Made by a program: the position numbers and the translations under genes. A stretch of 64,000 bases of DNA from Podarcis pityusensis (lineage: Eukaryota). Below, in pieces: positions 4,178 through 62,066 of this stretch. The notes beneath the pieces were generated by a model. The model searched no databases. It worked only from the letters and a program-made list of their open reading frames with translations, and was not told the DNA's origin. Position 1 is the first letter of the stretch. The number at the start of each line of letters is the position of its first letter. The stretch is taken from NCBI GenBank assembly GCA_964106645.2, contig OZ067041.1; one strand, written 5' to 3'.

Positions 4178-4395
4178 CACAACTACAGAGGAAATAAAAT
4201 AAATAAATAAATAGTCCAGTAGCCCGTTAGAGACCAACTAAGTTTGTTCCGGGTATAATCTTTCGTTTGCAAGCTTATACCCAGAACAAACTTAGTTGGT
4301 CTCTAAGGTGCTTCTGGACAATTTTTTATTTTTTATTTTTATTTTGACTGTGTCAGACCAACATGGCTACCTACTTGAATCCACAACTACAGAGG
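4178..4395 (+). mobile_element. Penelope-like element pLTR foldback insertion, older subfamily, hammerhead core lost at the apex
   Basis: Imperfect inverted repeat (TAGAGACCAACTAAGTTTGTT / AACAAACTTAGTTGGTCTCTA), tail GACTGTGTCAGACCAACATGGCTACCTAC, 14-bp TSD CACAACTACAGAGG at 4178-4191 and 4382-4395. Confidence 0.75.
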
Positions 4396-4709: not shown

Positions 4710-4954
4710 TATTAAAAAGCTACAGATAGGTAGCCGTGTTGGTCTGCCATAGTCAAAATAAAAAAAATCCTTCCAGTAGCACCTTTAAGACCAACTAAGT
4801 TAGTTCTTGGTATGAGCTTTCGTGTGCAAGCACACTTCTTCAGATACTTCTTCAGGTATCTGAAGAAGTGTGCTTGCACACGAAAGCTCATACCAAGAAC
4901 TAACTTAGTTGGTCTTAAAGGTGCTACTGGAAGGATTTTTTTTATTAAAAAGCT
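4710..4954 (-). mobile_element. Penelope-like element pLTR foldback insertion (young)
   Basis: Perfect 91-bp inverted arms at 4757-4847 and 4856-4946 around an 8-nt loop; unpaired tail 4722-4756; 12-bp TSD TATTAAAAAGCT at 4710-4721 and 4943-4954. Confidence 0.85.
4856..4893 (+). ncRNA. Minimal type I hammerhead ribozyme motif (mirror copy on the - strand at 4810-4847)
   Basis: GTAT-CTGAAGA-A-GTGTG(CTTG)CACAC-GAAA-GCTC-ATAC: stem I GTAT/ATAC, CUGANGA core, stem II, GAAA, palindromic AGCT in place of stem III; predicted cleavage after C4889. Confidence 0.75.
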
Positions 4955-10693: not shown

Positions 10694-10843
10694 ACTGGGA
10701 TAGCTCAGTTGGTAGAGTATGAGACTCCTAATCTCAGGGTTATGGGTTCAAGCCCCATGTTGGGCGGAAAGATTCCTGCATTGCAGGGGGTTGGACTAGA
10801 TGATCCTTGTGGTCCCTTCCAGCTCGACAATCCTATAGTTCTA
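10694..10843 (+). mobile_element. SINE with tRNA-Lys(CTT)-like head and CR1-type 3' tail
   Basis: TAGCTCAGTTGGTAGAGTATGAGACTCCTAATCTCAGGGTTATGGGTTCAAGCCCCATGTTGGGCG closely follows vertebrate tRNA-Lys(CTT); then ATTCCTGCATTGCAGGGGGTTGGACTAGATGA...GGTCCCTTCC. Confidence 0.85.
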
Positions 10844-14797: not shown

Positions 14798-14945
14798 CAG
14801 GCATAGGCAAACTCGGCCCTCCAGATGTTTTGGGACTACACTTCCCATCATCCCTGACCACTGGTCCTGTTAGCTAGGGATAATGGGAGTTGTAGTCCCA
14901 AAACAGCTGGAGAACCAAGTTTGGGAAATACTATGCCTATGCCTG
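14798..14945. mobile_element. Palindromic hAT MITE with chimeric right end, inserted in a - strand CR1 tail (14745-14980)
   Basis: TIRs CAGGCATAGGCA / TGCCTATGCCTG; TSD ATCTGGTT / ATCTAGTT. Confidence 0.85.
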
Positions 14946-20321: not shown

Positions 20322-20876
20322 GAACATAAGAAGAGCCTGCTGGATCAAGCCAATGGCCCATCTAGTCCAGGATCCTGTTCTCACATTGACTACCTAGATA
20401 CCTCTGGGTCAGGCATCCCCAAGCTCGGCCCTCCAGCTGTTTTGGGACTACAACTCCCATCATCCCTAGCTAACAGGACCAGTGGTCAGGGATGATGGGA
20501 ACTGTAGTCCCAAAACAGCTGGAGGGCCGAGTTTGGAGATGCCTGCTCTGGGGAAACCAACAAGCAGGACTTGGGCACAAGACCACTCTCCCCTCTTGTG
20601 GCTTCCAGTAGCTGGTACTCAGAAGCACTACTGCTTTGGACTGTGGAGGCAGAGCATAGCCATTATGGCTAGTAGCCATTGATAGCCTTTTGTCCAATTC
20701 TCTTTTAGAGCCATCCCATTTGGTGGCCATCACTGCCTCCTGTGGGAGAGAGTTCCATAGTTTAACGATGCACTACATGAGGAAGGACTTTCTTTTATCC
20801 ATCCCGAATCTTCCAACACTCAGCTTCACTGGCTGTCCCTGAGTTCCAGTGTCCTGAGAGAGGGAGAATAACTTTC
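20322..20876 (-). mobile_element. CR1 LINE 3' fragment (second subfamily) interrupted by a MITE
   Basis: GAACATAAGAAGAGCCTGCTGGATCA...CCATCTAGTCCAG; homologous to 26456, 47103 and 62147. Confidence 0.8.
20410..20545. mobile_element. Palindromic hAT MITE
   Basis: TIRs CAGGCATCCCCAAG / TTTGGAGATGCCTG; TSD CTCTGGGT / CTCTGGGG. Confidence 0.85.
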
Positions 20877-48282: not shown

Positions 48283-50185
48283 GTGATATCACACCTGCAC
48301 TCTGCCCCGCCCCAAGTTGTGCAGAACCCAGTGCCTGTGACTAAGGTTGTGATTCTAGAAGAGGGAAGTTTTTTCTCTTGAGACTGTTCCATGGTCTTGG
48401 TTGCATAACATGACAAATGTGACAAAATGCACATTTATTATCTACGGGGGCTTACTTCCTCTGGAGCTCATGTACTTAGTGTAATTAACTTGTCTGGCTA
48501 GTGAAGATTACTATATATGCCTGAAAAGTCTCTCTTTCTACATGGTAGAGAGAATCTGATGAAGAAGGCTGAGAGCCAACACAGCCCTACAATAAGCAGG
48601 TGTCTCTGAATGATTCATTTGGTGTTGTGCCCACTTGCGATACAATAGGATAGAGACTTAGGGAATTTTGGCACTTCTCTTGGCTTCTTTTATGTGCAAA
48701 GCTTTCCGTCAGTTAAGATGAGATTAATATGTTGTGCTTTTTAGTTTCCTTCCCTCCTTATTGGAACAGTGTTCCAGAAAAAACTCCTTAATGTGTCATG
48801 AACAACAACGCTTTGGGTGTAGGCTGTCCAAAAACTACTTGTTATAAATCATAGTGGTTCCTTTCTTACATGGGACATACCTGGTGCATTGGATTCATGG
48901 TTTAGTAAAATCTAGCAAATAGCAATCAAATAATTTTTCTTGTCCTTTAAAACATTAGAAAAAATACAAAACAGGCAATAGGCAGTGTTCATTTTACATT
49001 TCAAGTTATAAATAGCATGAGAAAATCAAAGATGAGCAAAGATTGCTATTCCAGAGCTATTTGTGTGTTTTGTTTTTTCCCTTTCCCCCCTTCTTTTAAT
49101 ATTAGAAAACAATACTGAACTCAGAAGCAACTGTCTTCTATGCGCTGTTTTCGTTTAGACTACACATGTAACCCCCCCACCCCGGAAAGTAATCTGCAAC
49201 AAACTGGCTACATATCTTTAATTGAGGTTGAACTGTTGTCCATACAAAACAACCAGAAAAAAAATCAGCAAATACTTGTGTTGCTACTTTGCCACTACCT
49301 GCAATTAAGCTGCTGTTAATAATATGACATCTCCTCTAACTTTTGTCTTAAATGTATTTTTGAGAGACTGCTTGCAAGTGCTCCAGAGATTAAGAGGCTG
49401 GAGAAACACCACCATATTATGTAGTCTGCTTTATGTACATAATGCGTTCTGGATAGAATTGAGAAAAATAGTGGGCAGGGTGGGTGGGGAAGGAAGCCAA
49501 GGCTGTAAACTGTTAAGCTCAGGAGGAATTGAAAGGGGGCAGAGGAAACCCATGAAAACAGAACAGAACAAATGAAACCTGCTTGTCCCTAGTTTTGAAA
49601 AGGTTGTATCATTGCAATTAATGAGCATGGCTAAGCTAAGACCGTTCATTTCAGGGGGCCTACTCTAAGTAAAACTTAGTTAAATACCCCCTGTGCAGTC
49701 TAATGAGGAATCTGAGAGCCTTAGGGTGCCTTATTCTGATACCTGCAAGAAAGACCCTAGTAATTGCTCCCTCATCATCTGCTTTTCAGGCTGTGAGTGC
49801 CATTGCTTACGTAGTCAAAACAGGACAAGTCCCACACAAGAGGGAGGGAGATGTCAGCAGGCAGGGGGGAGCCTAAGGTTGAAAGAACTACAAAGAGCAC
49901 CATAGGGAACTAGAAAACCTAAGGGTGGGGAACCCAAAAAATGAGGACTTGAGAGTACTCAGTCACTATTGCTTGTTATGGTGGGAGATGTAAAACTCTG
50001 GAAAAGGGGAAAGGAGTGGAGTAGCTGGATTCCTGAACTGCACTAGTCCACACTGTAGCATTTTGTTGCAGGTCCCAGTTGTAAATAATAGATTTTGATG
50101 TTGCTATCTCTATCTCTTCAGTCAAGATAACAAACACAGGAACATAGGAAACTGCCATATCCATCTAGCTTAGCACTGTCTATAC

Positions 50186-50321
50186 CACTGTTTCCCAAAC
50201 TTGGGTCTCCAGTTGTTTTTGGACTACAATTCCCATCATCCCTGGCCACTGGTCCTGCTAGCTAGGGATAATGGAAGTTGTAGTCCAAAAACAGCTGGAG
50301 AACCAAGTTTGGGAAATACTG
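50186..50321. mobile_element. Palindromic hAT MITE inserted in a - strand Squam3-like SINE (50137-50412)
   Basis: TIRs CACTGTTTCCCAAACTTGG / CCAAGTTTGGGAAATACTG; TSD GTCTATAC / GTCTACAT. Confidence 0.8.
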
Positions 50322-51535
50322 GTCTACATTGCCTGGTAGTGGCCCGCCCTGCCTGGAGATGTCAGGGATTGAACCTTCCACAAGTGGGGTAGATGTTCTA
50401 TCTCTGAGCTATCACCTTTCTGCTGAAGGCAGCTATGGGCTGGTGTATGCTATGTTTACACCTTACTAAATATTTTTGCCTCTTGTGTACACTTAACTAC
50501 ACAAAAGCAGTTCTCCTGTGATTAAATGGCAGCTCTTTTTCATAGCCTCCAATTCTGCTTCTGAGTGGCCCAATAATATAACAAACCTTAATCACCAGTC
50601 CCAAGATTTTGCTACATTTTTAATGCATCCATGAAAGTGTTAGCAGGACTTGCAGCCTTATTATTTTGGAGTTTATGTGATTTGCTTTGCTTTACCCAGT
50701 CAGTCTGAGCGAGTTGGAGCTGTTAACGCATAGATATATTTTTTGGCCTGTCTCTGTGTGAGATTCCTTTGCTCACTGCACACACACACACAAAGAAAAT
50801 GGCTGGGTACATTTAAGGTTTATAGGATTGTGGAGGATCTACTGAAGATTAAAGAGGACAGGAAAGTCAAATGAGCACTGTGTTAACTTTTGCTTGATAA
50901 AGGGATTTGTATAGCAGTCTGCTGCAAAAGATAAGACAAATGGGATAGCAGATGACCAGCTGAAAAATTTGAGAGTGATATTCATTGCTACATGTAAGAA
51001 TTGAGAATATGATCTTGATTCACTTTCATTTTAGCTCTTTATAGTCAATTCAATTTATTTAGTATCAGACCGAATAGAGCAAGAAAGCCACTGCCTCCGG
51101 CAAATAATTTCTCTCTAACAATTTTCCTTGTTAAGGCACTATGTATAAAAAAAGCTTTTATAGGTCAATTGATATAAGGCTGCTCCTTCATTTTAGACCT
51201 TTATTATCCCATTGATTTGATGCTTAAGATGAAGTGAAAGGGAAATACCATCTTACTGAATATAGTATCTTTCATCCCAGTTGTTCCTCTAGTACAGGGA
51301 TAGGGAATCTGTGGTCCTCCAGATTTCATTGTTCTTCAAACCTCACCAGCCCCAACCAGCATAGGCATTGTTAAGAGATGATGGAAAGTGAAAAACTCAC
51401 TATCCTGCTCTGGCGCTTCTCAAACAATGAAAGGGATCTTTTCATTATCCACTGAGATTTCATGAGGCACAGCCTCCACTGGGGATGCAACCCATACCAA
51501 ACAGAAGACAGCTATTTGAGAATGAGGGTGGTACT

Positions 51536-61801: not shown

Positions 61802-62066
61802 GTCCAAGGCACTAGTTACAGATAGGTAGCCGTGTTGGTCTGCCATAGTCAAAATAAAAAAAATCCTTCCAGTAGCACCTTTAAGACCAACTAAGTTAGT
61901 TCTTGGTATGAGCTTTCGTGTGCAAGCACACTTCTTCAGATACACTGAAGAAGTGTGTATCTGAAGAAGTGTGCTTGCACACGAAAGCTCATACCAAGAA
62001 CTAACTTAGTTGGTCTTAAAGGTGCTACTGGAAGGATTTTTTTTATTTTGTCCAAGGCACTAGTTA
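61802..62066 (-). mobile_element. Penelope-like element pLTR foldback insertion (young)
   Basis: Perfect 96-bp inverted arms at 61850-61945 and 61955-62050 around a 9-nt loop; 17-bp TSD GTCCAAGGCACTAGTTA at 61802-61818 and 62050-62066; arms and tail match the 4710 copy. Confidence 0.85.
61957..61994 (+). ncRNA. Minimal type I hammerhead ribozyme motif (mirror copy on the - strand at 61906-61943)
   Basis: GTAT-CTGAAGA-A-GTGTG(CTTG)CACAC-GAAA-GCTC-ATAC, identical to 4856-4893. Confidence 0.75.

What the first reader, a model, noticed from the sequence alone, without database searches (positions are those of the whole stretch)
61945..61973. Both young hairpins fold back at the ribozyme 5' boundary, and their loops are extra copies of the catalytic core
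Seen: the loop region here reads CTGAAGAAGTGTG (61945-61957), duplicating 61961-61973. In the other copy the loop TTCTTCAG (4848-4855) duplicates 4836-4843, the reverse complement of CTGAAGAA. Breakpoints fall within 2 nt of hammerhead stem I in both independent insertions, and the duplicated core lies on opposite strands in the two. Inference: the hairpin is built de novo at each insertion by RT stalling, re-priming or template switching at the hammerhead, which would give a mechanistic footprint of how inverted pLTRs form. Sequence 5' of the predicted cleavage site is retained, so the template was uncleaved at this ribozyme.
Basis: partly seen in the sequence, partly recalled or inferred. 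Interest (0 to 1): 0.7.

Follow-up and report, generated by a model that had tools for sequence, protein, structure and literature searches.

The report
Penelope hairpins joined at transcript start
These hairpins are real, individually made scars of a Penelope-type jumping gene; their turning point likely marks where the element's RNA begins rather than a ribozyme roadblock, and each likely forms when both cut DNA strands copy the same RNA and the two copies are patched together back to back.

Summary
The base-level observation is exact. Both hairpins are short insertions of an abundant Neptune-type Penelope-like retroelement (951-codon RT + GIY-YIG frame); about 1,000 such hairpins exist genome-wide. 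De novo formation holds: 43 distinct apices in 51. Clustering holds: 28 of 58 arms that reach the ribozyme core end within 8 nt upstream of it. The edge falls on an initiator-like site 30 nt after a TATA-like box, also in hairpin-free copies and template jumps, so it is likely the RNA 5' end. Core copies are a minority (14 of 51), and equally templated inserts occur far from the ribozyme. Arms share variants (377 of 378), yet neither arm contains the other in 26 of 105 insertions. That argues for two cDNAs primed on both target strands (12-nt stagger), then joined. The transcription start is predicted, not measured. The inverted-repeat structure is published. The scan already noted twin priming in other genomes; I did not find the start-site explanation in its notes or in my paper searches.

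The parts
61802..61818 (+). Copy B left target-site duplication (17 nt; last 5 nt also match the element start, so it fits a 12-nt stagger)
61814..61945 (-). Copy B long (L) arm: element +125 to -6, with tail and a mirror hammerhead (61906-61943)
61946..61954 (+). Copy B apex insert TGAAGAAGT; likely snap-back copy made by the L-arm 3' end
   Evidence: mechanism inferred
61955..62050 (+). Copy B short (S) arm: element -6 to +89
61957..61994 (+). Minimal type I hammerhead motif; predicted cut after 61990
   Evidence: features compared with passages; activity not tested
62050..62066 (+). Copy B right target-site duplication
4710..4721 (+). Copy A left target-site duplication (12 nt)
4722..4847 (-). 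Copy A long (L) arm: about +122 to -4
4848..4855 (-). Copy A apex insert; likely snap-back copy made by the S-arm 3' end
   Evidence: mechanism inferred
4856..4946 (+). Copy A short (S) arm, -4 to about +86, with hammerhead motif 4856-4893 (predicted cut after 4889)
4943..4954 (+). Copy A right target-site duplication
4192..4381 (.). Older, diverged hairpin of the same family; apex inside the ribozyme; 14-nt duplications at 4178 and 4382

Best explanation
Each hairpin is a new insertion of a Neptune-type Penelope-like retroelement, likely made when the element's enzyme nicks both target strands about 12 nt apart, each nick primes its own cDNA on the same uncleaved RNA, both cDNAs run off the predicted RNA 5' end 6-7 nt upstream of the hammerhead core, and the two ends are then likely joined head to head by synthesis-dependent end joining. 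Shown: family identity, de novo apices, 12-nt duplication mode, two fixed outer ends (about +125 and +83 to +90), a sharp 5' edge at -6, shared variants in both arms, mutual non-containment of arms, and templated inserts in both orientations. Inferred: that the edge is the transcription start, that both strands prime on one RNA (the rear polymerase displacing the front cDNA), and which polymerase makes the inserts. The loops hold CTGAAGA because it is the nearest sequence to the free ends. In B, the L end folds onto its own AG and copies GAAGAAGTGTG, whose GTG pairs with the CAC end of S. In A, the S end does the mirror step.
For: Parent: 3.0-kb unit, 951-codon stop-free frame, RVT_1 E 3e-12, GIY-YIG just under its cutoff. 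TATA-like box starts 30 nt before the A of TTTC-A-GT at -7 in 70 of 81 copies that keep the upstream part (one family, so not independent). 5' ends: 111 of 210 in -8..0, 41 at -6, 1 at -9. Tail-anchored sample: 28 of 58 arms that reach 0 stop in -8..0, against 4 of 30 in -30..-9 and 2 of 83 at the cut site. Single-arm copies stop there too (7 of 19). All 5 genuine direct template jumps leave from -4 or -6 and land at +167..+179, ORF sequence that follows only a 5' pLTR. An RNA-read joint runs +185 to -7. Outer ends: 47 of 49 apex-anchored hairpins have one long and one short arm; 0 of 105 have two long or two short arms. S reaches more than 10 nt further 5' than L in 26 insertions, L further in 8 (p 0.003). 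Copies made of an S arm with its own duplication exist, two with only a 10-11 nt stub of the L tail (L245, L259). 94 of 105 duplications fit a 12-nt stagger plus microhomology. Arms agree at 377 of 378 polymorphic cells, against 42% discord for random pairs. 21 of 51 apices have 0-2 unpaired central bases, too tight for a priming loop. In vitro, an anole PLE extends both target strands, starts at two adjacent internal RNA sites and uses uncleaved RNA (PMC11167929).
Against: No 5'-end RNA data: the RNA runs laid were dominated by host transcripts that carry insertions and showed no pile of starts at -7. Arm lengths are coupled: 10 of 20 long insertions have both ends within 25 nt, and only 2 of 105 pair a long with a short arm. 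Fold-back predicts this as well as the same-RNA model. The S-over-L bias is not significant at the 3-nt (36 vs 21, p 0.06) or 20-nt (15 vs 7, p 0.13) thresholds. Asymmetric deletion at a palindrome centre after insertion can also break containment. In vitro, RT start sites did not differ between the two strands (PMC11167929), whereas here one arm always uses each site. The measured D. virilis Penelope promoter is TATA-less, with an intron (PMC2377424). Start site and stem I lie 2-3 nt apart, so position alone cannot separate them.
Confidence: 0.6

Rival explanations
1. One cDNA (the long arm) runs to the RNA end, folds back and is copied into the short arm; later deletions at the palindrome centre make the arms unequal.
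For: Arms nearly identical (49 mismatches in 12,959 aligned bases). Arm lengths coupled. Snap-back inserts show that folding happens locally. Palindromic junctions were read as self-priming in PMC3846280.
Against: It needs deletions biased to the long arm (26 vs 8). It needs almost the whole long arm lost where only a 10-11 nt tail stub is left. Template jumps appear in short arms that their long arms lack (C1:10410660, 46650015, 16461048). It gives no reason for a fixed short-arm end. Extra cores occur in both orientations, 7 and 8.
Confidence: 0.17
2. One reading: RT stalls at the hammerhead fold and re-primes or switches template there, copying the catalytic core into the loop.
For: Breakpoints cluster within a few nt of stem I. 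A weaker shoulder lies inside the ribozyme: 10 of 68 ends at +1..+9 and 13 of 81 at +10..+30. 14 of 51 apices carry a core copy.
Against: A fold should block RT at its 3' side (+21 to +33), where ends are at background. The edge is sharp upstream and trails downstream, as expected for run-off plus trimming. 30 of 58 arms read through. Inserts far from the ribozyme are equally templated. The predicted fold of the -7..+45 RNA is weak, -7.8 kcal/mol.
Confidence: 0.08
3. The edge is a 3' splice site (TTCTGTTTCAG|TG): spliced RNA loses genomic similarity at -6, as the D. virilis Penelope intron ends at helix I.
For: The sequence fits an acceptor. The D. virilis intron end maps to the 5' end of helix I (PMC4209133; PMC2377424).
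Against: No fixed upstream exon follows -6 in the copies; the next two bases are mixed (AC 19, TG 15, AG 13, AT 5). No GT..AG joint ending there was listed in four raw RNA runs (6-12% of each run read).
Confidence: 0.05
4. Self-priming on an antisense template creates the head-to-head palindrome, as proposed for Adineta PLEs.
For: Proposed in PMC3846280 (passage) to explain palindromic junctions and intron retention.
Against: It does not predict an edge 30 nt after a sense-oriented TATA-like box, sense-template jumps from -6 to ORF sequence, or S-only copies with their own duplication.
Confidence: 0.05

Closest known systems
Inverted-pLTR insertions of endonuclease-bearing PLEs (Adineta Pen2a_Av, PMC3846280; Fig. 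2 legend of PMC8557442)
   Same: Head-to-head inverted 5'-truncated copy; one arm about 37 nt shorter there, 24-56 nt shorter with mode 38-39 here; one-sided tail; target-site duplication; TATA and Inr-like motifs in the pLTR.
   Different: Those papers read the junction as self-priming or leave the mechanism open. Here about 100 junctions point to two primed cDNAs, a 12-nt stagger and an apex at the predicted RNA start.
Poseidon from Anolis carolinensis in vitro (PMC11167929)
   Same: Both target strands cut and extended; two adjacent internal RT start sites bounding the tail; hammerhead cleavage not needed.
   Different: This element has the CX2-5CxxC linker of Neptune/Nematis, absent from Poseidon. 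In the parts I read, the paper does not link the two sites to inverted repeats, and it finds no strand difference in start sites.
LINE-1 twin priming (recalled, not from a call)
   Same: Both target strands prime on one RNA and the products are end-joined, giving a 5' inversion.
   Different: Twin priming inverts without duplicating. Here both arms cover the same stretch, so a hairpin results.
[quoted passage not shown]
   Same: Blunt, microhomology and templated-insert junctions from one process: 9 blunt, 30 microhomology and 66 with inserts among 105 here.
   Different: The polymerase here is not identified; the element's own RT could do it.
Minimal type I hammerheads of PLEs (PMC4209133)
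   Same: Extra base between 9 and 10.1, G10.1-C11.1 pair, palindromic helix III region.
   Different: Here the motif sits in mirror copies and appears to be a passenger.

Membership tests
Endonuclease-bearing Penelope-like elements | Single ORF with RT and C-terminal GIY-YIG endonuclease in the parent | tested here: met
   L129: RVT_1 E 3e-12; GIY-YIG E 2e-4, 21.8 bits against a 22.6 cutoff
Endonuclease-bearing Penelope-like elements | [quoted passage not shown] | tested here: met
   VYGIKCQQCPSALYIG in the translation; definition
Endonuclease-bearing Penelope-like elements | pLTR partial tandem, inverted 5'-truncated copy, one-sided 30-40 nt tail | tested here: met
Neptune/Nematis clades | CX2-5CxxC motif in the RT-EN linker | tested here: met
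   CNKPRCQLC; definition
Neptune clade | RT phylogeny places it in Neptune | not tested
   No tree was built; 'Neptune-type' rests on the linker motif
Penelope/Poseidon clade | Linker motif absent | tested here: not met
   Motif present
Minimal type I hammerhead of PLEs | CUGANGA and GAAA boxes, extra base after A9, G10.1-C11.1, palindromic helix III, UH triplet | tested here: met
   against passages; no Rfam hammerhead model matched at E up to 1
Minimal type I hammerhead of PLEs | Self-cleavage | not testable with these tools
   Needs an in vitro assay
Non-LTR retrozymes | Direct tandem units, each with a hammerhead | tested here: not met
   Window copies are inverted pairs; definition
Self-propagating hairpin element (MITE-like) | Inherited apex shared among copies | tested here: not met
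   43 distinct apices in 51; the commonest occurs 4 times
RNA polymerase II TATA/Inr promoter | Capped transcripts start at the initiator | tested here: inconclusive
   Spacing fits; the RNA runs are not 5'-end libraries

The most novel reading that the evidence does not exclude
Penelope-like elements integrate by obligatory double priming: one enzyme dimer nicks both strands 12 nt apart and copies one RNA twice from two fixed sites, so the inverted repeat and the one-sided tail are the direct product, and the apices of these fossils map the element's transcription start to the base.
Probability: 0.5. Interest if true: 0.7.

Novelty: new member of a known kind. Interest (0 to 1): 0.5.

Why it matters
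How Penelope-like elements make their inverted repeats and tails is described as undefined (PMC8557442). The junction statistics turn that into testable predictions for the existing anole in vitro system: a 12-nt double nick, one start site per strand, an apex that moves with the RNA 5' end, and no role for the ribozyme. The two window hairpins themselves are ordinary dead copies among about a thousand.

Tried and rejected
Rfam gave only sub-threshold microRNA matches, an effect of the perfect hairpin, and no hammerhead model. No indexed holder was on record as RNA. Four raw RNA runs added by species label and four contig runs were laid. In the raw runs 86-90% of laid reads ran on into unlike sequence, and ORF coverage was near zero, so they neither show nor exclude a start at -7. 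I looked for a second hairpin-forming family with a different promoter-ribozyme spacing as a natural control. Patterns gave 8 and 7 places, 37 matches of an old family (30 examined) and none. The old family is too diverged, with about 3 hairpins, so this was inconclusive. A pile of ends at +50 was an artefact of a variant in my reference copy; it was corrected, which moved the count from 27 vs 8 to 26 vs 8, and one search was not rerun. Three apparent jumps (-2750 to +259) are the reference's own wrap point and were left out. PMC9977147 held nothing relevant. Rejected: an inherited loop, a MITE-like family, and cleavage as the cause of the apex.

Full report
Observation. The two duplications are exactly as reported. 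Copy A (4710-4954) and copy B (61802-62066) are perfect hairpins with arms of 91 and about 96-105 nt, each between its own target-site duplication, with the longer arm on the left. On the + strand of each right arm lies a minimal type I hammerhead motif: GTAT, CTGAAGA, extra A, a 6-bp stem II, GAAA, GCTC, ATAC. It matches the features listed in PMC4209133 (passages). Positions below count from the C of CTGAAGA as 0. A third, older hairpin at 4192-4381 turns inside the ribozyme.

What the element is. The genome (1.5 Gb) holds 1,002 matches per strand to a hairpin pattern with an apex of up to 30 nt and 8,524 matches to the hammerhead motif. Two fetched loci carry a whole 3.0-kb unit between pLTRs; L129 has a 951-codon stop-free frame with RT and GIY-YIG domains. 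The linker motif CNKPRCQLC marks it as Neptune-type by the definition in PMC8557442 (passages); no tree was built.

Sample. I fetched loci from the first listed matches of four pattern searches, all in the first 65 Mb of contig C1, and added the window. Alignment to one parent copy gave 120 head-to-head junctions. I dropped 15: 14 with no duplication of 10 nt or more, and one segmental duplicate. That left 105, the three window copies included. This set mixes tail-, apex- and upstream-anchored samples. For the breakpoint rate I used only the 95 insertions recovered from the 100 listed tail matches: 67 inverted and 28 single-arm.

De novo formation and loops. An extra core copy is present in 14 of 51, 7 sense and 8 antisense with one holding both. 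Inserts of 7 nt or more match nearby sequence better than shuffles in 26 of 34: 12 of 16 near the ribozyme and 14 of 18 elsewhere. The core is therefore copied because it is adjacent, not because it is catalytic.

Why the apex is there. Of 58 long arms that reach 0, 28 stop in -8..0 and 30 read on. Only 4 of 30 stop in -30..-9, and 2 of 83 stop at the predicted cut site. Genome-wide, 6,096 arms match to -6 but 3,446 to -16 (mutation accounts for part of the drop). The peak is at -6, with 41 of 210 ends, and it trails downstream. In the parent, a TATA-like box begins 30 nt before the A of TTTC-A-GT at -7 (70 of 81 copies), the usual TATA-initiator spacing (established knowledge). Single-arm copies stop there too (7 of 19). 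All 5 genuine direct jumps leave from -4 or -6 and land at +167..+179, and one RNA-read joint goes from +185 to -7, probably a transcribed genomic tandem. Jumps are expected where a template ends. A ribozyme fold would block RT on its 3' side, and at -6 RT has already copied it. I infer that short hairpins come from priming at the first tail in the transcript and run-off at its 5' end, and long ones from priming at the downstream pLTR. The start site is not measured.

How the second arm arises. The outer ends are fixed and unequal: long arms at +114..+137, and 101 of 105 short arms at +71..+94. No insertion has two long or two short arms. The duplication mode is 12 nt (50 of 105), and 94 of 105 fit a 12-nt stagger plus microhomology. 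A copy of the long arm cannot reach further 5' than the long arm, yet the short arm does so by more than 10 nt in 26 cases against 8 the other way (p 0.003; weaker at 3 and 20 nt). Some insertions are a short arm plus a 10-11 nt stub of tail, and template jumps occur separately in either arm. The arms share variants at 377 of 378 cells, and their lengths are coupled. One RNA copied twice, with the rear polymerase trailing, explains both sets of facts. Fold-back explains the second set and needs biased later deletions for the first. PMC11167929 (parts 1-2 of 4 read) shows both strands extended and two start sites in vitro, but no strand difference in start site, which counts against a strict one-site-per-strand rule.

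The two loops. In B, a long-arm cDNA ending at -7 can pair its last CT with its own AG over a 5-nt loop and copy 11 nt. That gives exactly the observed sequence and a GTG end that pairs with the CAC end of the short-arm cDNA. In A, the short arm makes the mirror product. This is inference from sequence, and it resembles synthesis-dependent end joining (PMC2943611, abstract).

What is known. The inverted pLTR, its shortfall of about 37 nt, the tail, and TATA/Inr-like motifs are published, with self-priming as the proposed cause (PMC3846280, passages). PMC8557442 calls the mechanism undefined (passages). Seven searches of the held library showed no paper proposing double priming or a start-site apex for PLEs. 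Most subscription papers are not held, and I read no supplements; those of PMC11167929 may bear on start sites. I also saw part 1 of 5 of bioRxiv 2026.07.22.740005 and passages of PMC2377424. This scan's notes already give a twin-primed reading in other genomes; I had written my reading before seeing them, and they are not independent support. One note leaves the cause of the clustering open, and a look-up for a TATA or start-site explanation returned nothing.

Verdict. A real feature of a known element kind. Interest 0.5, for the testable mechanism rather than for these two copies.

Noticed in passing
L241:520-872 (G000:C1 near 6051820): One insertion whose short arm holds three direct 74-nt units (-4 to +68), each with a full hammerhead motif: a retrozyme-like tandem arising inside a single insertion.
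   Followed up: partly
G000:C1 10410992, 16461138, 27535214, 30675318, 46650103: Template jumps land in a narrow zone, +167 to +179, which suggests a third preferred RT entry site or an RNA end in the 5' part of the ORF.
   Followed up: partly
apices of the C1 hairpins: After an arm reaches -6, the next base is a non-parental A in 37 of 61 cases against the parental T in 20, and a 3-nt ACT/AGT centre recurs. This may reflect untemplated addition or stutter, but some A's can belong to the other arm.
   Followed up: partly
G000:C1:33931976 (L076): A palindrome with 1.6-kb arms has three tandem 21-nt templated copies at its apex, far from the ribozyme.
   Followed up: no
L261-L290: A second, old hammerhead-bearing PLE-like family (core CTGATGAAG, 37 matches), with a few hairpins.
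   Followed up: partly
window 20410-20545, 14798-14932, 50181-50326: An unrelated dispersed family of about 130-nt hairpins, likely non-autonomous DNA transposons (recalled label).
   Followed up: no
window 10701-10758 and 800-858: tRNA-like matches inside dispersed repeats, likely SINE heads.
   Followed up: no
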